Of a stretch of DNA of 64,000 nucleotides, positions 1 to 21,152 are shown one piece after another. How positions within the stretch are numbered: position 1 is the first letter of the stretch; each line of letters opens with the position of its first letter. Source of the DNA: Candidatus Bathyarchaeota archaeon (GTDB lineage: Archaea; Thermoproteota; Bathyarchaeia; Bathyarchaeales; Bathycorpusculaceae). The position numbers were made by a program, and so were the translations under genes. Below the pieces are notes generated by a model. It had not been told where the DNA came from and made no database searches. It was given only the letters and a program-made list of their open reading frames with translations. The stretch is from the NCBI GenBank assembly GCA_963832745.1, contig CAWHVC010000003.1:160001-224000 (forward strand). The letters are read 5' to 3'.

Positions 1-172
1 TTGGTCTGCCGGTTGTGCAGGTTGGACGTTTGGGTTTGTGTCTACCATAAATTTTTACTCCTTAAAAATATCCAAATTGGAAAGCTGCTATTATGGATAT
101 TGTAAGAACCATCGTCTACCCAAATCTTGTTTACAAAATTTTAGAAAACAGAAAAGAAAAGAAGGTTAGTAC

Positions 173-880: not shown

Positions 881-935
881 AACTCAAATTCAACAAAACA
901 TTATTTAAAATTTTTTCCAAAACTCCAATATCGAA

Positions 936-1679: not shown

Positions 1680-2413
1680 TCCTTAAACAAAATGTCTTTT
1701 TCAACAACACGCTTAAGCGTTCGACCAATACTGGTGCCTAAAAGTTTAGTTTCGTCACCGAGGGCTACTTCAACTGTTGAGTCAAAACTGATTTCTCCAA
1801 GAAAACGCAATCCAATCTTTTTAGTTTCAACCTCTATGTTATTGCTTTGGGTTTGCTTCATGTTTTCTAAAAGACCGATGATTGGCGCTTTTAATTCACA
1901 AAGCAAAGCGACCTGCTTCTTAACGGTTTCAAAAGCCAAAAGTGATGAAGTTGTAACAATCAAAAACTCAACTCGACTAATCAGCCGTAGCAAGTCAAGA
2001 ATGACGTCGCCGATTCCCGGCGGCATATCAATAACCAAAAAATCCAAACTACCCCACTGCGTAATGGCCAACAACTCGATAAGTGCGTTAGAAACGTCAG
2101 TTCCTCGTAATGGTGCAGGGTTTTCGCCTACAAAATAAACAAGTGACATGTATTCAAGCCCGTTCACCATGGGCGGCACTATGCCTTTGTCTTCTTTGGG
2201 TACGGTTATTTGTGCGTTTAGGATGACATGGGTTGATGGGCTGGTGAAGTCTAGATCAAACAGGCCTACTTTGCAGCCTTGGTCTTTCAGAGTTAACGCC
2301 AGTGTGGTTGCAACCATGCTTTTTCCAACACCGCCTTTGCCGCTGGAAATCGCCACAATCCGCTTCACATTTGAGAGTCGCAGGTTGATGACGCTAACTC
2401 TTGGGTCAATCAT
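1676..2413 (-). CDS. hypB: Mrp/MinD-family ATPase, probably ATPase-type HypB (Thermococcales-type)
   Basis: SGKGGVGKS deviant Walker A, DMPPG; directly downstream of hypA; lacks the Mrp C-terminal CPxC; IDPR N-terminus recalls T. kodakarensis HypB. Confidence 0.78.
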   Translation of the reverse strand: MIDPRVSVINLRLSNVKRIVAISSGKGGVGKSMVATTLALTLKDQGCKVGLFDLDFTSPSTHVILNAQITVPKEDKGIVPPMVNGLEYMSLVYFVGENPAPLRGTDVSNALIELLAITQWGSLDFLVIDMPPGIGDVILDLLRLISRVEFLIVTTSSLLAFETVKKQVALLCELKAPIIGLLENMKQTQSNNIEVETKKIGLRFLGEISFDSTVEVALGDETKLLGTSIGRTLKRVVEKDILFKD

Positions 2414-2419
2414 TTTAGG

Positions 2420-2818
2420 TTATTTTACTCCTTGAATATTGTCAAGCCAAACGCCTCGTCCGCTAACTATTTCAAAATCGGGGCTTCCACATTTGGGGCA
2501 CTTAATAAAAGTGTGTGCTGCTTCTGGCACAAAATGGATGGCTTCAGCGGTAGCAGTGTCAAGGGTTTCTTTTTTGAATTGCCAGTTAGTTCCGCAGACG
2601 CGGCATTTTAGTTCAGTTTTGGCTTTTAGAATGTGGAATTTGGCGTCTTTGTATAAGTCTGATTTTATTTGTCCAAGAGCAAACTTGAGAATATGTTTTT
2701 CGACATCTTGAAGTTCGCCGACTCTTATGGTTACTTCAGTGACTTTTTTTAGCTGCTCTTTTTGCGCGATTTGTGTTGCTGTGGCAAGTATTGCTTCAGC
2801 TAATGCCCATTCATGCAT
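2420..2818 (-). CDS. hypA: Hydrogenase nickel incorporation protein HypA
   Basis: MHE N-terminus, CRVC...CPKCGS zinc site. Confidence 0.95.
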   Translation of the reverse strand: MHEWALAEAILATATQIAQKEQLKKVTEVTIRVGELQDVEKHILKFALGQIKSDLYKDAKFHILKAKTELKCRVCGTNWQFKKETLDTATAEAIHFVPEAAHTFIKCPKCGSPDFEIVSGRGVWLDNIQGVK

Positions 2819-3235
2819 AAACCAGTTTTAACCTTTTAGAGTAATTTAAAAATATTGTATTTTGCCACTATTCTTCTAAATCTTGCAAAACCTCAAAGGC
2901 TTTAGCGAGCCGTTTGGCCAAGTCAGCATCAACTTTAGGGTCCTCATCAATATTGGTCAAGATTGGAAGTTTTCGCATAACCCTAAACTGCCTGCTTTTG
3001 TTATAACAATTGCTACCTCGGGAGCTTCGAAGTTCGAAGTAACACAAAAAAACATTTATGAAAATTAACATTTAACTATCAAAACGTCCCCAAATCATGA
3101 ATAAGAAAAACATTTTAGAACTCAACTTTCATGGATGTCACGCAAAAAAGGCGTTTCACATCAACAAATTACGTTCAACATTTTGAGACCTTACCAAGAA
3201 AAAAGATATATGCAAACACGCCGCTAAACATTGCT

Positions 3236-3508
3236 ATGGCAACCAAAGTACATTGCGCCCACATTCTAGTAAAAACTTTAACAGAAGCTCAAGCAGTAAA
3301 AGCACGCATTGATAAAGGCGAAAGCTTTGCCGAAATTGCCAAAAAAGTCTCACTTTGCCCCTCAGGCAAAAAAGGTGGAGACCTTGGAACATTCGGAAGA
3401 GGACAAATGGTAAAGCCTTTTGAAACTGCTGCTTTCGCGCTACAGAAAGGTCAAGTTTCTGACCCTGTTAAGACAGAATTCGGGTATCACATTATCAAAT
3501 GCATTTGA
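3236..3508 (+). CDS. ppiC: Parvulin (PpiC-type) peptidyl-prolyl isomerase
   Basis: HILV, SLCPSGKKGGDLG, GQMVKPFE, TEFGYHII; start moved to internal ATG 3236. Confidence 0.92.
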   Translation: MATKVHCAHILVKTLTEAQAVKARIDKGESFAEIAKKVSLCPSGKKGGDLGTFGRGQMVKPFETAAFALQKGQVSDPVKTEFGYHIIKCI

Positions 3509-3591
3509 TAAAGCTGCTTTGCCGGCAGATCATTTCTGGATGCTTCTAAGCCGTTCCAGATTTCACCATTTTAACTGAGAATTGAAAAAAC

Positions 3592-4335
3592 TTGAATAAA
3601 ACAACGTTTCATCAAAGTCGAAATCCAACAATAGCATGCATTGTCTTCTTTGCTGCCTACGTGCTATTCTCAATTCTAAGAGTAAACCTTCAGCCAATCG
3701 ATGTAGCAGTTAACCTTTGGACAATAACAATCCACAACGACATAGCAATCCTTTTGGCAAAAGCACTCTCAACAATTTTTGATACAATAATCATAGTTGC
3801 CGCATCAATAGTGATTGCAACTTTTCTTTTCTTAAAGAAACGTAAAGCCCAAAGTGTATTGCTTTTAACCGCTATAGGTGGAGAAGCCTTATTTGTAAAC
3901 ATCGTAAAAAATATTGACCAAGTCGCCCGACCAGAAAACCAGTTATTGCTTGGTTCCGGCTACTCTTATCCCAGCGGTCACAGTGCAGGCGTGGTTGTTT
4001 TCATCGGGTTAATTGCTTATTATGCTTGGCTAAACTGGGATAGCAGCAAACGTGTAAAGGTTTTTGCTTTGGCAGGTTTTGGTTTGCTTGTTGCTTTTGT
4101 GAGTTTTGACCGTGTCTATCTTAATGTGCACTGGTTAAGTGATGTTGTTGGTGGTTGGTTGTTTGGTGCTTTTTGGTTGTCATTTTGTATTATGGTGTAT
4201 GAGCGGTTGAAGTTTGCGGGCAAGTTTGAGACTGAACGGTTCAATTTCGCCGCCAACATTCTTTTTGGTGTTGGTGTTTTGGTTGCTGTTTCGATTGTTA
4301 CTTTGGGTTGGTTTTTTAATTATTTGACTTTTTGA
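3592..4335 (+). CDS. PAP2-family membrane phosphatase
   Basis: KxxxxxxRP, YPSGH, RVYLNVHWLSDV motifs. Confidence 0.92.
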   Translation: MNKTTFHQSRNPTIACIVFFAAYVLFSILRVNLQPIDVAVNLWTITIHNDIAILLAKALSTIFDTIIIVAASIVIATFLFLKKRKAQSVLLLTAIGGEALFVNIVKNIDQVARPENQLLLGSGYSYPSGHSAGVVVFIGLIAYYAWLNWDSSKRVKVFALAGFGLLVAFVSFDRVYLNVHWLSDVVGGWLFGAFWLSFCIMVYERLKFAGKFETERFNFAANILFGVGVLVAVSIVTLGWFFNYLTF

Positions 4336-4447
4336 TTTTTTATTTTCAAGTTTTGCTGATAATTAAGATATATCTTAAGCAGATATACTTATATTTGGCA
4401 AACAACCATTAAAAAACAACAAACACCTTGCAAGCAGGCAACATAGC

Positions 4448-6862
4448 ATGGCAGAGGCAAAAACAAAAAAAATCGTTCTTAACATTGGCGGCATGAGCTG
4501 CATAAACTGCGCCAAAGTAATAGAAAAATATACATCAAAACTAGGCGGTGTAACCCATGTAACCGTCAACTTAGCAGCTGAAAAAGCAATCATAGACTAC
4601 AACCCCGACATCATAGACCAAAAAACAATTGAAGCCACAATAACCGACATAGGCTACCAAGTAATCCATGAGAAAATAGTCATACCAGTCGGCGGAATGA
4701 CCTGCATAAACTGCGCCAAAACCATCGAAAAAGTCCTAAACGCCAGAGAAGGCGTCTACAACGCGGTTGTTAATTTTGCGGCTGAGCAAGTCGCTGTAGA
4801 GTACAATCCTGAACAAATAAGCAATGTAGCCATCAAAAAAGCGATAACCGATACGGGCTACGAAGTTATTGAAACTCAAAAAACCGCAGACGTAGACTCA
4901 GAAAGTAAAGCACGTCAACGCCATATTCAACGCCTAAAGCTTCTCTTAGTTTCAAGCGTTGCCTTGACGATTCCTATCATAATTTTAATGTGGATTCCAA
5001 TTCTGCCTATGGAAATAAACAAAATCGTAATGTTCCTCCTTGCAACTCCAGTTCAGTTTGTTGTAGGCTGGACATTTTACGTCGGTGCATACAAGGCATT
5101 ACGTAACAAAACCGCCAACATGGACACCTTAATCGCAATGGGTACATCCACCGCTTGGATTTACAGCACCATTGTAACTTTTCTGCCAGGCATATTTGGA
5201 GATGCAGCCGTATTCTTTGACACAGCAACCATGATTATGTCATTCATATTACTTGGCAAACTCTTAGACGCCATTGCTAAAGGCCGAACTTCCGAAGCGA
5301 TACGCAAGATTATGGGTTTGCAAGCCAAAGTTGCCCGCGTCATCCGAGACAGCGTCGAACAGGAGGTTCCAGTCGAAGAGGTTCAAGTCGGCGATATCAT
5401 CCTTGTTAAACCTGGAGAAAAAATTCCAGTTGACGGTATGGTTGTTGAAGGTTACTCGGCAGTTGACGAGAAAGTAATAACAGGCGAAAGCATCCCAGTC
5501 GAAAAGAAGGTTGGCGACCAAGTTGTCGGTGCAACCTTAAACAAAACAGGCGTATTCAAATTTAAAGCAACCAAAGTGGGAAAAGACACAGTTCTTGCCC
5601 AAATTATCGGCATGGTTGAAGATGCTTTAAGTTCAAAGGCGCCAGTTCAAAGACTTGCCGACGTTGCAGCAAGCTACTTTGTTCCCGCAATCATACTTAC
5701 TGCCACACTTTCCGCGTTCTTATGGTACTTTGTTGTCGGCGAAACCTATGTGTTCTCATTAACAGTGTTCATAGCAGTCTTAATCGTTGCATGCCCCTGC
5801 GCTTTGGGTCTTGCAACGCCCACAGCCATCATGGTTGGCGTTGGAAAAGGTGCAGAAAACGGCATCCTAATAAAAAGTGGCGAAGCCTTAGAAACAGCCC
5901 ACAAACTTCAAGCAATCGTATTTGACAAAACCGGGACACTCACAAAAGGAGAACCTGAAGTAACCGACATAATCCCACTAATCCCAGAAGCAGAACTTTT
6001 ACAGTTTGCGGCTATTGCAGAGAAAAACTCTGAGCATCCCCTCGGCGAAGCCATCACCCGAAAAGCTGCCATGCAAGGCGTAACAATCGAGGACCCAGAG
6101 TCTTTTGAGGCTATGCCCGGTTTTGGTGTACAAGTCACTTACAACCACAAACAGGTGCTTTTGGGTAACCGGAAACTGATGGAAACTAATAACATTGACA
6201 TCAGAGAGCTTGAACATAAAATGGCTACTCTCGAAGAGGGGGGCAAAACAGCAATGCTTGTTGCAGTAGACGGCAAGTTTGCCGGGTTAATTGCGGTTGC
6301 TGACACGTTAAAAGAACATTCCAGTGAGGCGGTACGTGTGCTTCAACAGATGGGCTTAGAAGTAGTCATGCTTACAGGGGATAATCAGAGAACCGCTGAT
6401 GCAATTGCAAAACAGGCAGGAGTAAACCGCGTGATCGCTGAAGTTTTGCCTGATGAAAAGGCTAACCAAATAAAGAAGTTGCAAGCAGAAGGCAAAGTTG
6501 TTGCGATGGTCGGCGACGGAATAAATGATGCACCCGCTTTAGCTCAGGCAAACATTGGCATCGCAGTTGGCAGCGGAACAGACGTAGCAGTGGAAACAGG
6601 CGATATAGTACTAATCAAAAATGACCTGCGTGATGTGGTAGTTAGCATTCAGTTAAGCCGTGCTACAATGCGAAAAATCAAGCAGAACCTGTTCTGGGCA
6701 TTCTTCTATAACATTATCCTCATACCATTGGCTGCTGGAGCCTTCTATCCAATACTGCATGTGCTCTTTGATCCCGTTTACGCTGCGGCTGCAATGGCAA
6801 CCAGTTCAGTAACTGTAGTAACAAACGCTTCATTGCTAAGGAGATTCAAACCAAAACTCTAA
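4448..6862 (+). CDS. copA: Cu(I)-translocating P1B-type ATPase with two HMA domains
   Basis: Two GMxCINC HMA motifs, TGES, CPC, DKTGT, SEHP, GDGIND, YN and MxxSS. Confidence 0.95.
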
Positions 6863-6900
6863 GTTACACGATAACCAATAGTATGGAGGTGAAACGTTTT

Positions 6901-7134
6901 ATGGCAAAAGATTTAGTTTGCAACATGGATGTTGACGAGAAAACCGCAAAATGGAAAACAGTTTACCAAGGAAAAACATACTACTTCTGCGCTCCAGGAT
7001 GCAAAAAAATGTTCGAAGAAGAACCGGAACTCTACATAAACGCTGAAGTCTCAGAAGACCAGCACCACCAGCATCATCACCATCACGAAGGAGAAGACAC
7101 TAAGAGCTGCGGTTGTGGCTGCGGAGGACACTAA
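6901..7134 (+). CDS. YHS/TRASH metal chaperone with His- and Cys-rich tail
   Basis: DLVCNM...YYFCAPGC, then HHQHHHHH and CGCGCGGH; follows copA; GGAGG RBS. Confidence 0.88.
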   Translation: MAKDLVCNMDVDEKTAKWKTVYQGKTYYFCAPGCKKMFEEEPELYINAEVSEDQHHQHHHHHEGEDTKSCGCGCGGH

Positions 7135-7158
7135 ACCCCCGCTTCTAGTTTTATTTTT

Positions 7159-7833
7159 TTAAATGTCATTTTCTTTCTTTAAAGGCTCAGAAACCGTTGC
7201 CAACAAGATGTTTTCAGCAAACAAGTCCTCATCAAAAGCTCCAACAAAATCAATTTTATCGTTAATTACAACTTTAGGAACACCCATAACATTGTATTTC
7301 ATGCTTAAGTCGGGAAATTCGCTTGTGCTAATAACATCGGCTTTTACGAAGTCACTTTCAACTGCAAGTTTGTGAGCTATAGCGGCTGCAACGGGGCAGT
7401 GTGGACAAGTTAGGGAGACAAAAACTTGAATGTGCACAGGAGATTTAACGTCTTGAAGTATCTTTTTGGTTTTTTCTGTTAAGTCAGTTGATCCCTTTGA
7501 AACGTTAAAGATTGCGTCAATCAGGGCTTGTAATTCGTATCCATAGGGCAATCCGTAGATTCTTACGCCATAATCTTTTGCACCGATAATCGCCAACGCG
7601 GGAATCTTGTCAATTCCGTACTCTTTAGCTTTCGCAGCGTCAGCAACAAAATCGTAAACTTCAACCGACAACTTACCGTTTAAACTAGCGATTTCCTGAA
7701 TTAACCCTCTTGTGTTGTTACAGGAACCGCACTCTATTTCTTGTGTAAACATAACAATTCTGACGGGGTTACTTAGTTTCAGGTTTAAATCGTTTTTTAA
7801 AAGGTCTTTTTTGTCTTCAGGAATCATTCCCAT
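7159..7833 (-). CDS. Protein disulfide oxidoreductase (two thioredoxin folds)
   Basis: CGSC and CPHC motifs, VMGVPK. Confidence 0.9.
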   Translation of the reverse strand: MGMIPEDKKDLLKNDLNLKLSNPVRIVMFTQEIECGSCNNTRGLIQEIASLNGKLSVEVYDFVADAAKAKEYGIDKIPALAIIGAKDYGVRIYGLPYGYELQALIDAIFNVSKGSTDLTEKTKKILQDVKSPVHIQVFVSLTCPHCPVAAAIAHKLAVESDFVKADVISTSEFPDLSMKYNVMGVPKVVINDKIDFVGAFDEDLFAENILLATVSEPLKKENDI

Positions 7834-7949
7834 AAAATATGTCTCCAGCAAAGAGTGTTCTATTAACCATTAAATGGTTTCAGAACTATATACTAATAGA
7901 ATCAGAGAATCTTGAATATAACTTTTCAAAAAAAGAAGAGTTAAGTTGT

Positions 7950-8894
7950 TTATGCATTATCGCCGTTGAAAACGTGCCTTGATGAACTTGAGGTTTCTTC
8001 GACCAACTGGTGAAGTCCATCAAGAACAAAAGCAAGTCTTTCACCTTTACTGGTTAAACCGTACATTTTTGGTGTTTTGCGAATGAAAATTAGTTTCTTT
8101 CCTTTCAAACCACGTAGGTACTTGTAGGTTCGTCTTATTGAAAGCCCTGTTTCTTTAGCTAGTTTGCCTGCAGAAATGCCTTCGGGACTGATTGCTTCGT
8201 AAACTCTTTTTTCTGTTGGTGCAAGGTTTTCTTTGCTTGGGTCTCGTTTGGATTTGAAGAAGAATATGTAATCTCTTTCTTTTGGTGTTTCAATTAAATC
8301 TTCTTCACGCAGACGTTTTAGGATGCGAGAAGTAATTTTTGGCGCAATTAGTTCTTGTACGTCTTCGAAAGTTTTAGGTCCAGCAAGTAAGGCGCAAAGC
8401 AGTGTTTCTTCGTAACATTCGCTATGTGCAGGAAGTACTGTGCAGTATTCTGGAAAACCAAAAAGTAGCTCAGTTAATCTACCGCCGAAATTGGTTGCGT
8501 AATACTCGTCTCTAGTTTCATTTGCAAGACCTACTTGCATTAACGGACGCAGATACTCAGCGTTGATAGTGTCTTGACTGTGTGTGTGACCTGTTTTTTT
8601 CAGTTCTTGCTGAATCTGACTAACCGAGTATTTGCCTTTAACGATTGATTGTAAAATGTGGAATCTAGTTTCATTTTTTAGGACATTAAATAGGTCTTTG
8701 ATGAAGTTTGGGTTGTCCATTGTGTCACGTAGTTGGCGCAACTCATTTTTTAGTTTGTATACTTGGCAGCGTCCAATACATTCAAGTGGTGATACAGGTG
8801 CACAGTTTCGGCATTCAGTGTCAAGTGTAGACAATAGGTCTGCGAGGTCCTTCTTTTTTTCGCCGTTTTTTATCGGCATTACGACATTTCCCAT
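7950..8894 (-). CDS. Multi-winged-helix putative regulator with N-terminal Cys cluster
   Basis: CRNC-x7-CIGRC followed by about three wHTH-like units; start moved to ATG 8894 because the longer ORF overlaps the opposite gene. Confidence 0.7.
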   Translation of the reverse strand: MGNVVMPIKNGEKKKDLADLLSTLDTECRNCAPVSPLECIGRCQVYKLKNELRQLRDTMDNPNFIKDLFNVLKNETRFHILQSIVKGKYSVSQIQQELKKTGHTHSQDTINAEYLRPLMQVGLANETRDEYYATNFGGRLTELLFGFPEYCTVLPAHSECYEETLLCALLAGPKTFEDVQELIAPKITSRILKRLREEDLIETPKERDYIFFFKSKRDPSKENLAPTEKRVYEAISPEGISAGKLAKETGLSIRRTYKYLRGLKGKKLIFIRKTPKMYGLTSKGERLAFVLDGLHQLVEETSSSSRHVFNGDNA

Positions 8895-8949
8895 TATTTC
8901 CCCCTCTCGACATTGCCATGACGGGTGAAGGAGTAAAGAGATTGGTTGT

Positions 8950-9013
8950 GAAAAACTTGTAACGTTTTTCGATAGTCCCGTCATGACACGCGTCATAGGT
9001 ATGACAATCGTCA
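8950..9013. promoter_or_regulatory. Palindromic operator candidates in divergent promoter
   Basis: GAAAAAC-N7-GTTTTTC (8950-8970); TGAC-N4-GTCA at 8984-8995 and 9002-9013, next to TTTAAATA TATA-like box. Confidence 0.5.
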
Positions 9014-9060
9014 ACTTTAAATATATTTCCCCATAAATTACCCAATAATCAGGTGATTGT

Positions 9061-9468
9061 TTGCTGTTACCATGTGAAGTCGGAGTGAAAACAGTTCTGC
9101 CAGCAGTAAAAGCCATAATGGCCAGAACAATCGTAGAAAAACATGGATTAAAAGAAAAAGATACTGCAACGCTTTTGGGTTTGTCGCAATCTGCCATTAG
9201 CCGGTACATGAACCGTGACCGCGGCAATAACCTGCTTGAAATAGAAAACACACTGGAAGTCCAGTTACTTATTGACCAGATGGTTACTTACCTAGTTAAG
9301 GAACCAGAGAAAAAACATGAAATTATGACGTTATTCTGTCAAACCTGCAAAACCATCCGCGAAAAGGGCTTGATGTGCAAACTGTGCCGTAAAGATATGA
9401 ATGAAGACTGGGCTCAAGATTGCGCTTTTTGCAGAGTTGAGGCAATAAAAATCTGCCAACCGCCCTAA
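9061..9468 (+). CDS. HTH transcriptional regulator with Cys-rich C-terminus
   Basis: LPCE N-terminus, LGLSQSAISRY HTH, CQTC/CKLC/CAFC. Confidence 0.82.
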   Translation: MLLPCEVGVKTVLPAVKAIMARTIVEKHGLKEKDTATLLGLSQSAISRYMNRDRGNNLLEIENTLEVQLLIDQMVTYLVKEPEKKHEIMTLFCQTCKTIREKGLMCKLCRKDMNEDWAQDCAFCRVEAIKICQPP

Positions 9469-9540
9469 ATTTCATTTCTTTCCAAAGCATCTTGAACGTT
9501 TATTAAAGCCCAGATTAAACTGAAGTTAAGGGATTATGCT

Positions 9541-10479
9541 TTGTCTTCATACGATGAGAAAAACGTTCTAGACATTATCGAAAAAGTGAGCAAAAGTGTC
9601 GTAAACATAAGCACAGTGAAGCTTGTTCATAATATTTTTTATCAAGCAGTTCCAGTCGGCGGTATGGGTTCAGGCACTATAATTGACGCAAAACAAGGCT
9701 TAATCCTGACCAATAACCATGTAGTGGGTGGCGCAGAAAAAATCAACATAACACTTTGGAATAATGAAGTTCTACAAGGTACCATCGCTGGGTCCTGTGC
9801 AATCCATGACATCGCAGTCATAAAAGTCAACGGAAATGATTTACAGGCATCTGAACTTGGGGATTCTGACAAGCTTCGGGTTGGACAACGTGTTTACGCG
9901 ATTGGTAACCCGTTTGGTTTAACAGGTGGACCTAGCGTAACAAGCGGTGTTGTGAGCGCGATTAACCGCACAATTGAGTCTCAACGAGGCGTTTTTGAGA
10001 ATCTTGTTCAAACTGACGCCGCCATCAACCCGGGCAATAGTGGTGGTCCACTTGTGGATTTAGAAGGAAAAGTTGTGGCAATCAACACTGCAATTATCCC
10101 GTACGCTCAAGGCATAGGATTTGCTGTTCCAATTAATTCTGCAAAAACCTGCACAAATGGCATCATAACTGAAGGCGCACCTAAGAGTGCATGGCTGGGT
10201 ATAATCGGTTTAAGCCTGACCCTTGATGTAGCGCGGTATTATGGATTGCCTGTTGATCATGGCGTTTTGGTTACGAAAGTTTCACGAGGAAGCCCGGCGG
10301 CGTCTGCAGGGATAGCTGAAGGTGACATAATTTTAAGTTTAGAAAACGTTGAAATTCATAGAATTGAGGATTTAGTTGCTCAAATTCATAAACGCAAAGT
10401 CGGTGATTCCATTCGAATATTTGCTTTACGTAATAGTCGTGAGCATTACTTTGACTTAACTTTAAGCCAAACTCCATAA
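9541..10479 (+). CDS. HtrA/DegP-like serine protease with PDZ domain
   Basis: TNNHVV, DIAVIKV, GNSGGPL triad; C-terminal PDZ. Confidence 0.93.
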   Translation: MSSYDEKNVLDIIEKVSKSVVNISTVKLVHNIFYQAVPVGGMGSGTIIDAKQGLILTNNHVVGGAEKINITLWNNEVLQGTIAGSCAIHDIAVIKVNGNDLQASELGDSDKLRVGQRVYAIGNPFGLTGGPSVTSGVVSAINRTIESQRGVFENLVQTDAAINPGNSGGPLVDLEGKVVAINTAIIPYAQGIGFAVPINSAKTCTNGIITEGAPKSAWLGIIGLSLTLDVARYYGLPVDHGVLVTKVSRGSPAASAGIAEGDIILSLENVEIHRIEDLVAQIHKRKVGDSIRIFALRNSREHYFDLTLSQTP

Positions 10480-10509
10480 TGTAAAATATGTTTTTGTAGG
10501 TGGAATAAA

Positions 10510-10941
10510 TTGAGTAGTGAAGAGCAAATTAAAGAAATCCTAACAAAATACAAGACTATAGCAGTGGTTGGGTTATCAAACACCATTGGAAAACCAAGCC
10601 ACCGAGTAGCTGCATATCTTAAACAGCACGGCTACATCATAATACCTGTAAATCCTACAATCGAAGAAGCTTTAGGCAGTAAAAGCTACAAAACCCTGCT
10701 AGATATACCTCCAGAAATCGCAAAAGGTATTGAGGTTGTGGATATTTTTCGTAAAAGTGAAGATGTGCCGCCGGTTGTTGAGCAGGCAATTGAGCTTAAG
10801 CAGCGGTATGGTCAACCCTTCGTGGTTTGGATGCAGCTGGGTATCCGTAATGAGCTGGCGGCTGAGGCTGCGAGGCAAGCGGGGCTAATTGTGGTTATGG
10901 ATAAGTGCATGATGAAGGAGCGCCTCCACCTGTTTCCTTAA
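10510..10941 (+). CDS. CoA-binding protein (YccU-like)
   Basis: IAVVGLS, IPVNP, VDIFR, VWMQLG, MDKC. Confidence 0.92.
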   Translation: MSSEEQIKEILTKYKTIAVVGLSNTIGKPSHRVAAYLKQHGYIIIPVNPTIEEALGSKSYKTLLDIPPEIAKGIEVVDIFRKSEDVPPVVEQAIELKQRYGQPFVVWMQLGIRNELAAEAARQAGLIVVMDKCMMKERLHLFP

Positions 10942-16331: not shown

Positions 16332-17636
16332 ATGCATAAGCAATTCACAGTTTCACTTATCGCAATCATTTTTACTTTAACAATTACCAGCATAATCGCT
16401 GTCTCCGTCGAGCCAGCTAAAGCTGAAACGGGCAAAACCATAAGGGTCCCACAAGACTTTCCCAGCATAAACGCCGCAGTAGGCAATGCTTCACAGGGGG
16501 ACACCATATTTGTGAAAGGCGGAGTTTACACTGAAAAATTGGTTATTGATAAGCAATTGTCGCTTGTGGGCGAGGATGAAGCTTTAACCGTTATTGATGG
16601 GGGCGGAGAGGGAACAGTTGTTTGGATAAACGTTGACAATGTTACCTTAAGCGGATTTACCATAAGAAATAGTGGTGACAACTTTACGGACAGCGGCATC
16701 TATGTCAACAGCTCCAAAAGCGCAACTCTTTCGGGCAATACGGTTACCAGCAACAACATCGGAGTTTATCTTGCTGAGTCTCCTAAAAGCCTGCTCAGAG
16801 ACAACGCTTTAGAGGGCAACAAGTTCAATTTTGGCGTTTACAGCAGCAATTTTGACGGCTACATCCAAGACATTGACCAGTCGAACACTGTGGAAGGCAA
16901 ACCGATGGTTTATTGGGTAAATACAGAAGACAAACAAGCCCCATCCAACGCGGGGTATATTGCTGTTGTGAATTGCACCGACATAACGGTTTCCAGCGTG
17001 GTTTTAGAGAAGAACTGGCAAAACCTACTGTTTGCCTACACCAACAACTCCAAAATCACAAACGTGACAAGCACACTAGGCGAGGACAGTCTTTGGCTAA
17101 TAGACAGCCATAACTGCAACCTACAAAACAGCAACATAACAGGAAACATTTGGGGCGGCACAGCTCTTGTTAACACTTCAAACTGCACAGTTCAAGGCAA
17201 CACTTTCAAGGCCAACGGCGGCTATGGTTTGTTTCTGTCAGATTCTTCAGGTAACCTGTTTTACCATAACAACTTCATATCTAACCCTCACCAAGCATGG
17301 CTCTATGGTCAAAACAGTAACAGTTGGGACAATGGTTACCCAAGCGGTGGAAACTATTGGAATAATTACACGGGCGTGGACCAAAAAAAAGGTCCCAACC
17401 AGAATGAAACGGGAAGCGATGGCATCGGTGATACCCCAGTTTACTTAGGGCAGGACAACGTTGATAATTACCCATTGATGACTCCATGGACCCAGCAGCC
17501 AAATGTGCCTGTCGTGATACCCATAGAGTTTTCAGTAACCGGAATAATTGCAGTAACCGTCATACTTGCCATTTTCATAGTTTACTTCGCGAAAAAGTGG
17601 TCAACAAAAAAGCAAGCAGCAAAAGAGGAAAAATAA
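16332..17636 (+). CDS. NosD/pectin-lyase beta-helix surface protein
   Basis: IRVPQDFPSINAAV, parallel beta-helix Asn repeats, GNYWNNY..DGIGDTP..DNYPL, C-terminal TM. Confidence 0.85.
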   Translation: MHKQFTVSLIAIIFTLTITSIIAVSVEPAKAETGKTIRVPQDFPSINAAVGNASQGDTIFVKGGVYTEKLVIDKQLSLVGEDEALTVIDGGGEGTVVWINVDNVTLSGFTIRNSGDNFTDSGIYVNSSKSATLSGNTVTSNNIGVYLAESPKSLLRDNALEGNKFNFGVYSSNFDGYIQDIDQSNTVEGKPMVYWVNTEDKQAPSNAGYIAVVNCTDITVSSVVLEKNWQNLLFAYTNNSKITNVTSTLGEDSLWLIDSHNCNLQNSNITGNIWGGTALVNTSNCTVQGNTFKANGGYGLFLSDSSGNLFYHNNFISNPHQAWLYGQNSNSWDNGYPSGGNYWNNYTGVDQKKGPNQNETGSDGIGDTPVYLGQDNVDNYPLMTPWTQQPNVPVVIPIEFSVTGIIAVTVILAIFIVYFAKKWSTKKQAAKEEK

Positions 17637-17638
17637 AA

Positions 17639-18343
17639 ATGGCTATACAAACGCTTAAAAAATATTCAAACGTGATATGGTTTGTTATTATAGCAGTGGT
17701 TTTTTCGCTTTTCTTGTACTGGATAAGCGTGGCTGTTTACGGGTTTGGCGACTGGCTTTTTCTTTCAATCAACATAGTATTTTTTGCGGTTTTTTTGGCG
17801 TTTATTCAGTTCCGGCGAAAAATAGCTCGTTTGCCGGCAAGCGCCACTTTAGCGTTTATTGTTGCCTTGTATTTTGAAATGTACGGTGTTCCTTTAACTG
17901 CGTACTTTTTCACGTGGGCGCTTGGTTACGATAGAGTCTACATGCTAGAGTACCTACTCACAGGCGTAATTGGCGTTGAAGCATTCACGATTCTTTTTCA
18001 CTGGTTTATTTTGCCCGTTTCAAACATCCTCATGCTTGCGGGGCTGCTGTTGATTGTGTTTGGCTGGAGAAAAATTCATCAAGCCAAAGGCACACATATG
18101 GTAAAAGACGGTATCTACCATTACATCCGTCACCCACAATATCTGGGCTTCCTAATGCTAACGCTAGGTATGAACATCCAATACACAACCATTCCGACAC
18201 TGTTGATGTGGCCACTCCTCATTATCCTGTACTACCGACTGGCAAGGCAGGAAGAACAGGAAGTTTCAGAAAAGTTTGGGCAAGAGTACGAACAATACAA
18301 AAAGGAAACACCCATGTTTTTCCCACATTTAAGAAAAAAATGA
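17639..18343 (+). CDS. Isoprenylcysteine carboxyl methyltransferase-family membrane protein
   Basis: GIYHYIRHPQYLG, EE..FGQEYEQYKKETPMFFP; start moved to ATG 17639. Confidence 0.88.
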   Translation: MAIQTLKKYSNVIWFVIIAVVFSLFLYWISVAVYGFGDWLFLSINIVFFAVFLAFIQFRRKIARLPASATLAFIVALYFEMYGVPLTAYFFTWALGYDRVYMLEYLLTGVIGVEAFTILFHWFILPVSNILMLAGLLLIVFGWRKIHQAKGTHMVKDGIYHYIRHPQYLGFLMLTLGMNIQYTTIPTLLMWPLLIILYYRLARQEEQEVSEKFGQEYEQYKKETPMFFPHLRKK

Positions 18344-18942
18344 GGAAACTAACAGCAGTCACTCTAGCATTCACTGCAGTATTTATTATTGTAATGTCAA
18401 GCTCTTTCGCCAGCGCAAGCATCAACACGCTACACATCGACTTAGACATCGCAAAATCCACCATCACCCCTTATGAAAAACAGCAAATCACCACCATAGT
18501 CAACGAAAAAGGCGTAGGAATCGTATTTGTTATTCAGCCAGCACAAGGCCCAGCTTGGACAGACTTCTTAAATGAACATCCAGACTTGAGAGCTTTGTGG
18601 GTTCTTGCTCCTGATGACGTAAAAGCCCAAATACAAGCAGCAGTTGGAAACAAAATTGTTTCTTACGCAATTGTCAACTTTGACGACGCAGGATCTAAAA
18701 CGTTGAATTTTGAAACTGACTTTACAGGCATTAACGGGGCACCAAGCACAGGTTTAATAGGAGAATACAAAGTGTTCTTTGCATACGTGTCATTTGAGCC
18801 ATGGTATTGCATGGAAACAGGTTTTGCTTGTGGCGCATGGAACGTTGTCCCTGAAGTGCCGCTTGGAACAGCAATGGCGGCTGTCTCAATGATTGCAGCA
18901 GTAGGCTTCTTAAAGTATAAAAACAAAATTTCTAAGCTTTAA
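18340..18942 (+). CDS. Secreted protein with VPE-type C-terminal sorting signal
   Basis: Signal peptide; VVPEVP + TM + KYKNK; ATGA coupling at 18340. Confidence 0.7.
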   Translation: MRKLTAVTLAFTAVFIIVMSSSFASASINTLHIDLDIAKSTITPYEKQQITTIVNEKGVGIVFVIQPAQGPAWTDFLNEHPDLRALWVLAPDDVKAQIQAAVGNKIVSYAIVNFDDAGSKTLNFETDFTGINGAPSTGLIGEYKVFFAYVSFEPWYCMETGFACGAWNVVPEVPLGTAMAAVSMIAAVGFLKYKNKISKL

Positions 18943-19085
18943 TTTTTTTATTTATTTTTTATTTTTTAGGCATAATTTTGTTTTTAGGTAATTTTATTGT
19001 GTATTTGTTTTCTACAATTTGTTTTATTAGACATGTTTTGGAAAGTTTTTTTAAAGGCTTTCTTTGAAAGTTGTTTGGTGGTTAG

Positions 19086-19583
19086 TTGAGAGGCAAGCAG
19101 TGGTCAGTTGAAGAAGAACGGCAATTGCGTGAACTTGTTAAGGAAGGCAAAAGTTTGGAGGAAATTTCACAGAATATGGGTAAGTCTGTTCTTTCTGTGA
19201 AAGGTAAATTGCATAATTTGGGTTTAAATAAGTTACGAGTTGGTCGGAGTTTCTGGGGTACAGGTGCAACAACAACTGTTGCAACAACTACTTCTTCTGA
19301 AGCTTCGGCTTCGGTTAATGGGGCGGTTTTTGGTGGTATTGCTTTAAAATTGAAGCAAAAGTTGTCTACTCTTGAAGAAAATGCTAAGCGTCTTGATGCA
19401 GCAAATGCTTTGTTAACAGATCCAAATGTTAATCTTAGTCGTACTGATGTGCAAAGACTGCATGCTGCTGTTTTGGGTACTAAGACTTATCATGAAGTTT
19501 ATGTGAAGTATGTGCAGTATCGCAAGTTAGAGGAAGAGGTTGCGGAGTTGAAACGGAAGCTTGCGGAAGAAAAAGATCAATAA
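19086..19583 (+). CDS. HTH/coiled-coil protein, candidate terminase small subunit
   Basis: WSVEEERQLREL..KSLEEIS..MGKS..SVKGKL HTH; helical C-terminus; overlaps terL. Confidence 0.6.
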   Translation: MRGKQWSVEEERQLRELVKEGKSLEEISQNMGKSVLSVKGKLHNLGLNKLRVGRSFWGTGATTTVATTTSSEASASVNGAVFGGIALKLKQKLSTLEENAKRLDAANALLTDPNVNLSRTDVQRLHAAVLGTKTYHEVYVKYVQYRKLEEEVAELKRKLAEEKDQ

Positions 19584-21021
19584 ATCTGGGGTTGATCGTC
19601 GTAGTTTGCGTGTTGATGAGTTGATGGCGCAATGGAAGGGGCTTAGGGATGATTACCGTGCTCATCATGAAGCCAGAGTTGCTAAGGTTGAAGCAGCACG
19701 CGGTAATGCAGCATTGTTTTTTAGGGCGATTTGTCGTTTGGAGCTTTTTTGGTACCAGCTTGAGCTTGCTGAATTGTATAAGCAGAACCAGTTTATTGCT
19801 GTTAGGTGGCCAAGACAGACTGGTAAAAGCACTTTTATTGGTGGGCTGCTTTTGCAGGATGCTTATGAGAATGCTGATTTAAATATTGGTTTTGTTGGTC
19901 CTAGTTGGCGCCAGACTAAGCTGAATCTTCGTAGAATTGCAGGTTTTTGCCGCAATTTGCCTTCGGGAAGCTGTCATGTACAAAAAACCAGGCTAAGCTT
20001 TAGTAACGGCTCAGTTATAGAGGCTTTTCCTAACAACCCTGAAACCATTAGGGGCAATACTTTTCACAGGTTATGGTGGGATGAAACTAACTTTACAGCT
20101 GGCGACGAGAACTTGTATGATGCTATCTTGTTTACTTTAGGCACAACAAACGGAAAGTTAGTTGCTAGCAGTACTCCGTTTAGTAGTGATTCGCTGTTTT
20201 GGAAAATGTGTAATCACAAAAAATTTCAAGATTTTGCTCGTCATCATTTTAGTTGGGAGAGGGCTTTGGTGCCTAATGGTCCGTTATCTTCTGAGATGAT
20301 TAAGCGAATACAGCTTCAGTTTGGTGATGACCAGCAGCGTTGGCGTCGTGAAATGGAGGCTGAATGGGCTGAGGATGAGGATGTTTGGTTGCCCCAGAGC
20401 CTGATTGTATCTTGTGTGGGTACCGAAAAAACTTGCGGTAACGATCTTGAAATGTACAATCCAGAAACACGTTGCAGCGGAGAGTTTTTTGCTGGTTTAG
20501 ATCTTGCACAGACTAAAGACTACTGCGTTTTTAGTGTCGTCGAGCGGTTAAATGATAAGCTTTTTTTGAGGCATTTGAAGATTTTTTCTCAACCTACCAA
20601 GTACGCGCATGTTTTAGGTTACATTAAGATGCTACAGGATCGCTGGAATGGTTTTGAGAAAATCAGGGTCGATTTCACCAGGGAGGGACCAAGCTTTATT
20701 GCCGATATGGAGACTGCAGGCATCGAAAACGCAGAAGGCGTAAACTTTAGCCTTCCACGTAAAAGTGAAATGGCTAGCTTGTTAAAACAGCGTATGATGA
20801 ATCAGCGTTTCTATTATCCCCTGTTTGGCTGGGAGAAGCCCTACAAATGTGATGTCTGTAGTGAGTTAAATATTGAAAGATATCAGCTACGAAATGACGG
20901 CAATATTAGCTTTGGTCACCCCAATGGAACGCATGATGACGTATTTTGGAGTATAGCTTTGGCAGTGTATGGAACTGCTGAAATGCAACCAGAACCATTC
21001 TTAGCCGTGATACCCCGATAA
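19561..21021 (+). CDS. terL: Terminase large subunit (ATPase + RNase H-like nuclease)
   Basis: WYQ, Walker A PRQTGKS, Walker B LWWDE, SSTP coupling motif, GLDLA, RVDFT, HDDVFWSIALA. Confidence 0.88.
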   Translation: MRKKKINKSGVDRRSLRVDELMAQWKGLRDDYRAHHEARVAKVEAARGNAALFFRAICRLELFWYQLELAELYKQNQFIAVRWPRQTGKSTFIGGLLLQDAYENADLNIGFVGPSWRQTKLNLRRIAGFCRNLPSGSCHVQKTRLSFSNGSVIEAFPNNPETIRGNTFHRLWWDETNFTAGDENLYDAILFTLGTTNGKLVASSTPFSSDSLFWKMCNHKKFQDFARHHFSWERALVPNGPLSSEMIKRIQLQFGDDQQRWRREMEAEWAEDEDVWLPQSLIVSCVGTEKTCGNDLEMYNPETRCSGEFFAGLDLAQTKDYCVFSVVERLNDKLFLRHLKIFSQPTKYAHVLGYIKMLQDRWNGFEKIRVDFTREGPSFIADMETAGIENAEGVNFSLPRKSEMASLLKQRMMNQRFYYPLFGWEKPYKCDVCSELNIERYQLRNDGNISFGHPNGTHDDVFWSIALAVYGTAEMQPEPFLAVIPR

Positions 21022-21073
21022 AATCTATAAAAACATGCTGTCTGTTCAGTTGGCGATTCCTTATTGTTAATTG

Positions 21074-21152
21074 TGGTGCGGTCGCCGGGATTTGAACCCG
21101 GGATCATTAGCTTGGAAGGCTAAAGTCCTAAACCAGACTAGACGACAACCGC
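21074..21152 (-). tRNA. tRNA-Gly(TCC), CCA encoded
   Basis: GCGGTTG/CGACCGC acceptor, TTAGC-CTTCCAA-GCTAA anticodon arm, GGTTCAAATCC T-arm, ACCA end. Confidence 0.96.

What the first reader, a model, noticed from the sequence alone, without database searches (positions are those of the whole stretch)
19086..21152. Intact orphan terminase module (HTH + TerL) beside tRNA-Gly with no other viral genes
Seen: two overlapping ORFs with no stops or frameshifts. TerL keeps its ATPase motifs (WYQ, PRQTGKS, LWWDE, SSTP) and nuclease acids (GLD, VDFT, HDD). The upstream gene has an HTH plus helical/coiled-coil layout. The pair ends about 50 bp from the 3' end of tRNA-Gly. No portal, capsid, tail or integrase is recognisable in 64 kb, and no duplicated tRNA 3' end was seen. 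Known: TerS-TerL package DNA through a portal, tRNA 3' ends are integration sites, and GTA terminases can be unlinked from structural genes. Inference: a domesticated stand-alone terminase (GTA-like host-DNA packaging, satellite-like hijacking, or an anti-viral nuclease/decoy) rather than a decaying provirus.
Basis: partly seen in the sequence, partly recalled or inferred. Interest (0 to 1): 0.85.

Follow-up and report, generated by a model that had tools for sequence, protein, structure and literature searches.

The report
Stand-alone viral terminase gene pair
An archaeal chromosome keeps an intact virus DNA-packaging enzyme pair with no other virus genes, and it belongs to a large family of such bare pairs that related archaea have conserved across species, so they appear to be used rather than decaying.

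Summary
Window 19086-21021 holds an intact small HTH gene overlapping an intact large-terminase (TerL) gene, 52 nt from the 3' end of tRNA-Gly(TCC). No capsid, tail or integrase gene was found in the window or the 99%-complete genome.

The pair is not unique. This genome has 3 intact pairs, 1 broken pair and 1 fragment. TerL relatives occur in 45 of 61 related genomes, against 18 of 61 for HK97 capsid.

In viral contigs (80 of 80) and 11 proviruses the same two genes sit between tail genes and an ABC-ATPase/GNAT gene. In cellular genomes 29 of 41 loci are bare pairs.

Bare pairs keep all catalytic motifs (25 of 25). They form orphan-only clades. At conserved host loci they show strong purifying selection: copy C vs its ortholog has TerL dN/dS 0.05, and copy B is syntenic in four species at 0.06-0.08.

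So this is a virus-derived, selectively retained stand-alone packaging module, not a decaying provirus and not a self-sufficient GTA. It most likely acts on capsids or DNA of infecting related viruses. That step is inferred. For the window copy itself, selection is not directly shown.

The parts
19086..19583 (+). Small HTH protein (165 aa) in the small-terminase (TerS) position. It has an N-terminal Myb/GcrA-like HTH, a low-complexity linker, and a conserved helical C-terminal domain ending in a long helix.
   Evidence: phrog_323 E=2.9e-8; 26-sequence alignment with invariant W6. AlphaFold model, mean pLDDT 77. A homolog was detected upstream of TerL in 77 of 80 viral contigs and lies directly upstream of TerL in all 4 full-length own-genome copies.
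19561..21021 (+). Large terminase subunit (TerL, 486 aa): N-terminal packaging ATPase and C-terminal RNase H-like nuclease, with all catalytic motifs intact.
   Evidence: It violates 0 of 80 columns that are invariant in the other 33 family members.
21022..21073 (.). 52-nt spacer between the TerL stop codon and the tRNA 3' end. It marks the right edge of the inserted segment; homology with sister genomes begins exactly at 21074.
   Evidence: matches start at query position 35, which is window 21074..
21074..21152 (-). tRNA-Gly(TCC), intact and convergent with TerL. This tRNA is an integration hotspot in the genus.
   Evidence: In G008, two tandem elements sit at this tRNA, bounded by perfect 48-nt and 45-nt copies of its 3' end. 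Each has an ORF overlapping the att copy that matches archaeal integrase PF16795: the first strongly (E=4.9e-24), the second weakly (E=5e-5, below cutoff).
18943..19085 (.). T/G-rich intergenic region upstream of the HTH gene, with a TATA-like TTTTTTTAAAGG about 30 nt before the start codon (possible own promoter; inference).
   Evidence: Sequence read directly. No significant repeats.
18340..18939 (+). Lineage-specific ORF (200 aa, signal-peptide-like N-terminus and C-terminal membrane anchor by eye). Together with the pair it fills the 2.7 kb between the ortholog of gene 17486-18343 and the tRNA. Whether it belongs to the unit is uncertain.
   Evidence: No Pfam, PHROG or PADLOC hit. No ortholog at this locus in the 8 sister loci examined. 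Not found beside other copies.

Best explanation
The two genes are the DNA-packaging module (a TerS-position HTH protein plus TerL) of siphovirus-like Bathyarchaeia viruses. Here the module has been left, or installed, on its own at the tRNA-Gly(TCC) integration hotspot. It is one copy of a large family of bare 'HTH + TerL' cassettes that these archaea retain as working genes.

Proposed working:
- The HTH protein recognises a specific DNA site.
- TerL supplies the ATP-driven translocase and the nuclease.
- The genome encodes no capsid, so the enzyme can only package DNA when a related virus infects and supplies procapsids. Such viruses are abundant in viral metagenomes.
- The resident terminase would then load DNA marked by its own recognition site (the cassette and neighbouring chromosome) into the visitor's capsids. 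This spreads the cassette (satellite-like or lateral-transduction-like) and lowers the virus's yield.

What is shown: viral origin, bare two-gene architecture, multi-copy family, retained active sites, long-term purifying selection on sister copies, and lack of capsid and tail genes.

What is inferred: TerS function of the HTH protein, dependence on helper capsids, and the benefit.

My odds: about 0.8 that the family is a selectively maintained stand-alone module, and about 0.45 for the capsid-borrowing mechanism stated here.
For: Viral origin:
- In 80 of 80 IMG/VR loci TerL lies in a virus gene context; the full order is tail genes, p137, p80, HTH, TerL, ABC-ATPase/GNAT. HTH was detected upstream in 77 of 80 and ABC-GNAT downstream in 68 of 80.
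- 11 of 41 cellular loci show virus context around the pair, with tail-tube, HK97-gp10-like and tape-measure hits and HK97 capsid about 9 kb upstream.

Bare pairs:
- 29 of 41 cellular loci carry only HTH + TerL, and one more keeps a 44-aa remnant of the downstream gene.
- The flanks are host genes: NosD/beta-helix and ICMT here; AcnX/UbiD, exosortase/PriS and TrmB at copies B, C and D; MFS/ferritin and glycosyltransferases at other loci.

Copy number in the same 61 genomes:
- TerL in 45, HK97 capsid in 18, tail tube in 18, provirus gene A2 in 14. The own genome has 0 for the last three.
- G010 and G023 have 8-10 TerL matches and none of the three markers. G002 and G029 lack A2 and tail tube, with one capsid match each (E=1.2e-3 below cutoff; 4.4e-6).

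Function retained:
- 25 of 25 intact orphan TerLs keep Walker A, Walker B, [ST]STP and the nuclease acidic residues, as do 9 of 9 provirus TerLs.
- 24 of 29 bare pairs have an intact TerL.

Selection in situ:
- Copy C vs its syntenic ortholog L060: TerL dN/dS 0.048 (Nd 27, Sd 115, dS 0.55) and HTH 0.11. Eleven host flank genes have dS 0.31-1.7.
- Copy B is syntenic beside UbiD/AcnX in four species, with TerL dN/dS 0.06-0.08.
- L048/L049: 0.09.

Orphan-only lineages in a tree of 79 viral, 9 provirus and 25 orphan TerLs, plus 5 distant outgroup TerLs (two of them from provirus loci):
- A clade of 17 bare pairs (support 1.0) has no viral member.
- The window's clade of 5 bare pairs (support 0.99) is sister to viral contigs.

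Integration signature: a convergent tRNA or tRNA 3' fragment lies downstream of TerL at 4 independent loci and never upstream.

Potential helpers exist: 176 viral contigs encode relatives, up to 76% identical.
Against: - No direct evidence that the window copy itself is under selection. It has no syntenic ortholog in the 28 sister loci examined (20 TerL-homolog loci; 8 tRNA-Gly loci), so it could be a young remnant.
- No expression data.
- The small protein has no significant fold match to solved small terminases.
- No recognisable pac-like repeats.
- A 2-kb cassette with no replication or integration genes is far smaller than any described satellite.
- Long vertical retention at fixed loci argues for a host-level benefit more than for spread by hitch-hiking.
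- Some copies do decay: 5 of 29 bare pairs have a broken TerL, and there are many fragments.
- 'Bare' is defined by tblastn against 28 reference provirus proteins, and several loci lie on contigs of only 9-13 kb.
- Syntenic sets and one probable duplicate assembly (L108/L112) mean the 29 loci are not independent.
- dS is saturated in the copy B comparisons.
Confidence: 0.45

Rival explanations
1. Capsid-independent antiviral nuclease. The resident HTH protein recognises the packaging (pac) site of related incoming viruses, and TerL cuts there at the wrong time. The pair would act like a virus-specific restriction enzyme or as a decoy for the virus's own terminase.
For: - Both the nuclease and ATPase sites are conserved in all 25 intact orphans.
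- The HTH partner evolves much faster than TerL (25-55% vs 58-71% identity among own-genome copies; dN/dS 0.11-0.36 vs 0.05-0.09), as expected for a specificity subunit in an arms race.
- Several divergent paralogs occur per genome.
- The distribution is patchy, with turnover, at an integration hotspot.
- Vertical retention at host loci implies a host benefit.
Against: - No match to any PADLOC defence model.
- No known defence system uses a terminase (from memory, not searched exhaustively).
- The full ATPase-translocase is conserved, which a simple nuclease would not need.
- No neighbouring defence genes were noted.
Confidence: 0.2
2. Functionless relic. The window copy is simply the last surviving piece of a provirus that integrated at tRNA-Gly(TCC), and it has not yet had time to accumulate disabling mutations.
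For: - It sits exactly at the tRNA 3' end, where integrated elements lie in G008.
- In many viral contigs the sequence ends about 1.45 kb after TerL (13 of 80), so the pair is near one end of the virus genome, and end remnants are plausible.
- L106 keeps a 44-aa stub of the next gene.
- This genome also holds ordinary decayed remnants: on C2 TerL itself is deleted, and on C5 a TerL 3' stub lies near a degraded integrase.
- Krupovic et al. 2019 judged a similar TerS+TerL-only element 'likely a relic' (PMC6563490, passage read).
- No syntenic ortholog is available to show selection on this copy.
Against: - The family as a whole is not neutral.
- The window TerL keeps 80 of 80 otherwise invariant residues and shows no long branch.
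- Both ORFs are intact, with the conserved start region of the HTH protein.
- Random decay does not explain why 29 loci retain exactly these two genes and lose both tightly abutting neighbours.
- In bacteria, terminase genes are preferentially lost from incomplete prophages (PMC7744054, passages read).
Confidence: 0.15
3. Self-mobilising two-gene element. TerL's RNase H-like nuclease and ATPase, guided by the HTH protein, cut and move the cassette itself, like a transposase.
For: - Related cassettes (75-82% nt identity) lie at non-homologous sites, with homology ending at the gene ends.
- The 17-member orphan-only clade occupies about a dozen flank groups.
- Mosaic replacement has occurred inside TerL at a conserved site.
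Against: - No terminal inverted repeats or target-site duplications at any of the 4 own-genome copies.
- No near-identical copies within a genome.
- Much of the distribution is explained by vertical inheritance.
- tRNA 3' fragments next to TerL point to integrase-type integration.
Confidence: 0.05
4. Part of a dispersed GTA-like system whose capsid and tail genes lie elsewhere in the genome but are too divergent to recognise.
For: - GTA terminase genes can be unlinked from structural genes (established knowledge).
- The portal model used is blind even to the related proviruses.
- Archaeal virus structural proteins are often unrecognisable by sequence.
Against: - The HK97 capsid and tail-tube models detect these genes in sister proviruses (4 of 5 genomes) but find nothing in this 99%-complete genome.
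- tblastn with all ORFs of 8 provirus loci finds no structural homolog.
- Prohead protease, SPP1 portal and lambda-E capsid models also find nothing.
- Three divergent paralogous pairs per genome is unlike a GTA.
Confidence: 0.05

Closest known systems
NitKor-E1, a 'cryptic integrated element' of Ca. Nitrosopumilus koreensis (Krupovic et al. 2019, PMC6563490; passage read)
   Same: An archaeal integrated element whose only Caudovirales-like genes are TerS immediately upstream of TerL. The authors called its function enigmatic and noted that terminase had not been found in non-viral mobile elements.
   Different: NitKor-E1 is a single case with an integrase, VapBC and a restriction endonuclease, and was judged a likely relic. 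Here the pair is bare (no integrase or cargo). It recurs at 29 of 41 loci, forms orphan-only clades and shows long-term purifying selection. I did not test sequence relatedness to NitKor-E1.
Phage satellites that carry their own packaging specificity (SaPI/PICI TerS, capsid-forming PICIs, PICMIs; from memory, plus reference lists seen)
   Same: Chromosomal elements at att sites that lack a full virion gene set and use terminase components to divert a helper's capsids.
   Different: Satellites carry integrase, regulation and replication genes and are about 5-15 kb. This unit is about 2 kb with only HTH + TerL, and no excision or replication functions were found. Passages I read name only pSSVx and pSSVi, plasmid-derived SRCE elements and a putative Asgard satellite, NMV2S, as archaeal virus satellites; only NMV2S is linked to a head-tailed virus, and none is described as carrying a terminase.
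Siphovirus-like proviruses of Bathyarchaeia (46.8-kb Bathy-6 provirus, PMC11697101, passage read; Fuxivirus and Kunpengvirus, bioRxiv 10.1101/2023.08.24.554615, passages read)
   Same: The same host class, and in the proviruses and viral contigs I examined the same TerL family and gene pair. Relatives occur in MAGs titled Bathy6.
   Different: Those are full virus genomes with capsid, tail and integrase genes. The window has only the two packaging genes.
Gene transfer agent terminases (e.g. RcGTA; from memory; PMC5026251 seen only in a search listing)
   Same: Virus-derived terminase kept by the cell under purifying selection.
   Different: GTAs keep a full head-tail gene set in the same genome. 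None was found here.
Domesticated genes of defective prophages in bacteria (PMC7744054, passages read)
   Same: Prophage remnants can be retained under selection.
   Different: In that survey terminase genes are among those preferentially lost from incomplete prophages. Here terminase is what is kept.

Membership tests
Large terminase subunit (TerL, T4-like Terminase_6 family) | N-terminal ASCE ATPase with Walker A, Walker B/catalytic Glu and coupling motif | tested here: met
   PF03237 scores 40.4 bits against a cutoff of 22. The profile hits the T4 gp17 ATPase at E=2e-20. Motifs are present at aa 84, 171 and 203 and conserved in 34 of 34 family members.
Large terminase subunit (TerL, T4-like Terminase_6 family) | C-terminal RNase H-like nuclease with conserved acidic residues | tested here: met
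   The profile hits a solved TerL nuclease domain at E=1e-6 over residues 307-467. D314, D371, D459 and D460 are invariant. Pfam Terminase_6C alone is below its cutoff (E=0.17).
Large terminase subunit (TerL, T4-like Terminase_6 family) | Encoded in a virus genome together with portal and capsid genes | tested here: not met
   No capsid, tail or protease genes in the window or genome. This feature is met by relatives in viral contigs.
Small terminase subunit (TerS) | Gene immediately upstream of, and co-oriented with, terL | tested here: met
   23-nt overlap with TerL. A homolog was detected upstream of TerL in 77 of 80 viral contigs.
Small terminase subunit (TerS) | N-terminal HTH DNA-binding domain followed by a helical oligomerisation core | tested here: inconclusive
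   HTH at residues 8-45 and helices at 96-111 and 119-164 in the model. Foldseek gave no match at E<=0.001; the only TerS row (4xvn) has E=2.8. The PHROG TerS family scored E=0.05.
Small terminase subunit (TerS) | Forms a ring and binds TerL and the pac site | not testable with these tools
   Needs biochemistry or large-assembly modelling.
Integrated provirus (intact or decaying) | Structural genes (capsid, tail) and integrase within att-bounded DNA | tested here: not met
   No att duplicate. No integrase in the window. No structural genes. 14 neighbour ORFs have no viral family hit.
Gene transfer agent | Head-tail structural gene cluster in the same genome | tested here: not met
   with positive controls in sister genomes.
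Phage/virus satellite (PICI, P4-like, PICMI) | Own integrase, regulator and replication module next to the packaging gene(s) | tested here: not met
   Only host-type genes flank the pair. No integrase in the window.
Phage/virus satellite (PICI, P4-like, PICMI) | Mobilised and packaged by a helper virus | not testable with these tools
   Related viruses exist, but no induction or virome data were available.
IS/transposon | Terminal inverted repeats and target-site duplication | tested here: not met
   None at any of the 4 own-genome copies.
Known anti-phage defence systems (PADLOC models) | Match to a defence-system protein model | tested here: not met
   0 hits for the HTH protein, TerL and ORF 18340-18939.

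The most novel reading that the evidence does not exclude
Bathyarchaeia carry a capsid-less, chromosomal terminase system: bare TerS-like/TerL cassettes that have left the virus genome and persist for long periods as cellular genes. During infection by related viruses they seize the visitor's procapsids, or cut its DNA. In effect this would be a two-gene 'packaging parasite' or defence, giving transduction by proxy. It would be the first terminase shown to function outside a virus, satellite or GTA.
Probability: 0.35. Interest if true: 0.9.

Novelty: new variant of a known kind. Interest (0 to 1): 0.74.

Why it matters
Terminase is regarded as a hallmark of tailed viruses. The one earlier report of a TerS+TerL-only archaeal element called it enigmatic and probably a relic (PMC6563490, passage read). 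In bacteria, terminases are among the first genes lost from dying prophages (PMC7744054, passages read).

Here the opposite pattern holds across a whole archaeal genus. The packaging enzyme alone is what survives. It is often present in several copies, at conserved host sites, and under constraint as strong as that on neighbouring housekeeping genes.

If these cassettes act on infecting viruses, they are either a new minimal kind of virus parasite or a new defence principle, and a possible route of gene transfer in an abundant, uncultured sediment lineage. The question is directly testable in existing Bathy-6 enrichment cultures.

I found no description of such bare, conserved terminase pairs in four literature searches.

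Tried and rejected
- **Terminal repeats.** I looked for terminal inverted repeats or target-site duplications around the 4 own-genome copies and found none.
- **Pac-like repeats.** Repeats in and upstream of the HTH gene were only short two-copy matches in AT-rich DNA.
- **Fold search of the HTH model.** Searches against viral and PDB libraries gave no match at E<=0.001; only the HTH domain resembles GcrA/Myb/Tc3 locally.
- **Complex prediction** (TerL alignment plus HTH residues 88-165): the verdict was 'no answer', which is not evidence either way.
- **The look-up of sequencing runs** for RNA: no RNA holder was listed.
- **PADLOC:** no hit for the pair.
- **NCBIfam:** no TerL model hit.
- **Profile searches of provirus genes A1 and A2 against PDB sequences** were uninformative. 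I had first thought of these as portal and capsid. I dropped those labels and use the genes only as conserved provirus markers.
- **Pfam portal model:** it finds nothing even in the proviruses, so I discarded it as evidence.
- **Crude k-mer CRISPR finder on the own genome:** no array, hence no spacer test of exposure to these viruses. This is a weak negative.
- **Synteny of the window's flanks** with 20 homolog loci: none.
- **An early claim I withdrew.** I first read the 17-member orphan clade as 17 different sites. A flank comparison showed syntenic sets (B/L053/L107/L118, C/L060, L108/L112), leaving about a dozen sites.
- **Rows dropped.** L056-L058 (TerL 27-38% identical, context unknown) were left out of the 41-locus tally. 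Broken TerLs were left out of the trees and motif counts. Only the best 80 of 176 viral loci and 80 of 236 genome loci were returned and examined.
Full report
**1.
- The window has two open, overlapping ORFs on the plus strand: 19086-19583 (165 aa) and 19561-21021 (486 aa).
- The only tRNA, tRNA-Gly(TCC), is at 21074-21152 on the minus strand, 52 nt beyond the TerL stop and convergent with it.
- The large ORF is a large terminase subunit. It matches phrog_2 at E=1.7e-34. Pfam Terminase_6N is above its cutoff.
- A profile of 31 family members hits the T4 gp17 ATPase (E=2e-20) and a solved TerL nuclease domain (E=1e-6).
- The closest annotated phage terminase is only 25% identical.
- The small ORF has a Myb/GcrA-like HTH, but only at sub-cutoff scores.
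- An AlphaFold model from a 26-sequence alignment has mean pLDDT 77. It shows a confident three-helix HTH (8-45), a disordered linker (52-86) and two helices (96-111, 119-164).
- GC content (0.41-0.42) matches the surroundings.

**2. It is not a lone orphan.**
- The 3.02-Mb, 99%-complete genome holds five TerL loci (six matches): the window copy (A), two more intact copies (B at C3:49350-50789 and C at C3:444918-446342), one split copy (D on C4) and one 3' fragment (C5).
- All four full-length copies have the same small HTH gene directly upstream.
- Among the own copies TerL is 58-71% identical and the HTH protein 25-55% identical. Similarity stops at the edges of the two genes.
- No copy has inverted or direct terminal repeats.
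- The flanks of B, C and D are ordinary host genes: AcnX and UbiD, exosortase and the PriS primase, TrmB.
- The window copy lies between NosD/beta-helix surface proteins, an ICMT-type methyltransferase gene and the tRNA.
- Ten neighbouring ORFs have no PHROG hit.

**3. Where the pair comes from.**
- In sister genomes the same two genes lie inside siphovirus-like proviruses. The order is: conserved genes p462 and p339, tail tube, HK97-gp10-like, tail proteins, p137, p80, HTH, TerL, ABC-ATPase/GNAT.
- An HK97 capsid gene lies about 9 kb upstream.
- In another module type, tape-measure and tail genes precede the pair.
- IMG/VR holds 176 viral contigs with relatives, up to 76% identical to the window TerL.
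- In all 80 loci returned, TerL sits in virus context. HTH was detected upstream in 77 of 80 and ABC-GNAT downstream in 68 of 80.
- The HTH protein therefore occupies the small-terminase position in the viruses. Its TerS function is an inference from position and layout, because no fold match was significant.
- Relatives in species-representative genomes are almost all titled Bathyarchaeota or Bathyarchaeia. That is 76 of 80 loci; 3 are titled 'uncultured archaeon' and 1 Methanocella sp. They include Bathy-6 MAGs.
- A Bathy-6 provirus with terminase, integrase and structural genes is in print (PMC11697101, passage read).

**4. Bare pairs are the rule in cells.**
- I classified 41 wide-flank cellular loci of this TerL family. 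Three distant loci were left out.
- 11 have virus context. One is a pair plus a 44-aa stub of ABC-GNAT. 29 carry only HTH + TerL.
- In the viruses p80 overlaps the HTH gene, and ABC-GNAT starts a few bases after TerL. Repeated clean loss of both neighbours is therefore not what random decay predicts.
- Across the same 61 related genomes, TerL is found in 45. HK97 capsid is in 18, tail tube in 18 and provirus gene A2 in 14.
- The window's genome has none of the last three (for capsid). tblastn with every ORF of eight provirus loci found no homolog of any head or tail gene.
- The capsid model does find capsids in 4 of 5 provirus-bearing genomes, so that negative is meaningful. The portal model finds none there, so the portal negative is not.
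- Caveats: several loci sit on 9-13-kb contigs. Syntenic sets and one probable duplicate assembly reduce independence. 'Bare' rests on tblastn against 28 reference proteins.

**5. The bare pairs are maintained.**
- All 25 intact orphan TerLs keep the ATPase and nuclease motifs, as do the 9 provirus TerLs.
- Copy C and L060 (G008) are syntenic on both sides. TerL has dN/dS 0.048 at dS 0.55 and HTH has 0.11. Eleven flanking host genes have dS 0.31-1.7 and dN/dS 0.04-0.20.
- Copy B lies next to the same UbiD/AcnX genes in four species, with TerL dN/dS 0.06-0.08. dS is saturated, so these ratios are rough.
- The orphans L048/L049, which lie among glycosyltransferase genes, give 0.09.
- I built a tree of 79 viral, 9 provirus and 25 orphan TerLs, plus 5 distant outgroup TerLs. 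In it, 17 orphans including B and C form a clade with support 1.0 and no viral member.
- The window copy falls in a 5-member orphan clade (support 0.99), sister to viral contigs L126-L128.
- Two single orphans nest among viruses.
- Orphaning therefore happened several times, and at least two lineages then persisted and diversified as bare pairs.
- The window TerL violates none of the 80 columns invariant in the others. It has no syntenic ortholog, so selection on this particular copy is not shown.

**6. The tRNA link.**
- Homology with sister genomes begins exactly at the tRNA 3' end.
- In G008 the ortholog of window gene 17486-18343 is separated from tRNA-Gly(TCC) by two tandem integrated elements.
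- Those elements are bounded by perfect 48- and 45-nt copies of the tRNA 3' end. ORFs overlapping those copies match archaeal integrase PF16795, one strongly and one weakly.
- The window has 2.7 kb there instead: ORF 18340-18939 plus the pair. It has no att copy and no integrase.
- A convergent tRNA or tRNA 3' fragment follows TerL at four independent loci (A; B; L047, with syntenic L046; L048/L049) and never precedes the pair.
- Thirteen viral contigs end 1.44-1.52 kb after TerL, just past ABC-GNAT, which suggests the pair lies near one end of the virus genome.
- The bare pairs are thus best seen as the att-proximal end of integrated viruses, or as mini-elements using an integrase in trans. 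Selection has kept them.

**7. Turnover.**
- Many stop-bearing copies and fragments exist.
- At the syntenic L044/L045 site the host flank and the 5' part of TerL are 82-93% identical. The 3' half of TerL is 61-79% identical, and displaced TerL 3' stubs lie downstream. This points to recombination with incoming relatives, with a crossover inside TerL.

**8. Mechanism and comparison.**
- The genome lacks capsids, and both enzyme activities are conserved. I therefore think the cassette most likely works during infection by related viruses, by loading its own DNA and neighbouring chromosome into borrowed capsids. This step is inferred (about 0.45).
- A capsid-independent antiviral nuclease or decoy is the main rival (0.2). 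A young relic remains possible for this copy (0.15).
- Self-transposition and a hidden GTA are unlikely (0.05 each).
- The closest precedent is NitKor-E1 in a thaumarchaeon, a TerS+TerL-only element called enigmatic and likely a relic (PMC6563490).
- In bacteria, terminases are preferentially lost from incomplete prophages (PMC7744054).
- I found no description of conserved bare terminase pairs. Supplements were closed.

Noticed in passing
L093:9947-10024 to L094:15081-15128 (G008:C6): Two tandem integrated elements (about 5.3 and 19.7 kb) lie at tRNA-Gly(TCC). They are bounded by perfect 48- and 45-nt copies of the tRNA 3' end. At each, an ORF overlapping the att copy matches archaeal integrase PF16795: one strongly (E=4.9e-24), one weakly (E=5e-5, below cutoff). 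Neither element carries this TerL family.
   Followed up: partly
G074:C1:536642-538005; G138:C20:18341-19682; G164:C32:62984-64251; G142:C8; G160:C62; G122:C68; L042, L046, L047: In other Bathyarchaeia families TerL occurs as two separate ORFs, ATPase and nuclease, split at about aa 286-300. The three 'broken' close relatives each have one independent nonsense codon in the same linker region (aa 253, 269, 294) and still show dN/dS of 0.07-0.08. Split terminases may be functional.
   Followed up: partly
L044:3798-4914, L045:4492-4993, L107:6243-6499, L113:10995-11228; own genome C5:458648-458814: Isolated stubs of the last 40-110 codons of TerL, ending at the stop codon, are much commoner than 5' or internal fragments (my hand count: about 21 vs 5 vs 4 loci). 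They often lie 0.5-5 kb downstream of an intact pair. At L044/L045 the resident TerL is a mosaic with a crossover near aa 195.
   Followed up: partly
L050:10474-11913 and 68 of 80 viral loci: A conserved ABC-type ATPase fused to a GNAT acetyltransferase follows TerL directly in these viruses. It gives weak PADLOC hits to mads and PtuA-type ATPases. This is an unusual gene for a packaging module, and its function is unknown.
   Followed up: no
L043:7325-8935 (G005:C15): In the provirus whose TerL is among the closest to the window's (74%), an IS110-family transposase gene is inserted inside the HTH gene. HTH fragments flank it on both sides.
   Followed up: no
own genome C2:228641-232028 and C1:402928-411810: These are ordinary decayed remnants of the same virus family. 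On C2, p137, p80 and a small protein are kept, but TerL and half of ABC-GNAT are deleted. On C1, p137, p80, a split HTH gene and an ABC-GNAT fragment remain without TerL.
   Followed up: partly
window 18943-19085; upstream of copies B, D and L053: A 150-300-nt strongly G/T-rich tract (C about 0.10-0.12) lies upstream of the HTH gene in some but not all copies. Its role is unknown.
   Followed up: no
window 1-10941 vs L092 (G017:C104): Relative to G017, window segment 1-10941 is inverted. In G017, and in four other sister genomes, homologs of window gene 173-880 lie on the 3' side of tRNA-Gly(TCC), about 0.4-6.5 kb from it. The region around this tRNA is therefore rearranged in the window's genome.
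   Followed up: partly
L249: One close TerL relative (73% identity) lies on a 13.9-kb contig of a MAG titled Methanocella sp. This could be mis-binning or cross-class transfer.
   Followed up: no
whole own genome: A crude k-mer search found no CRISPR array in this 3.0-Mb genome.
   Followed up: no
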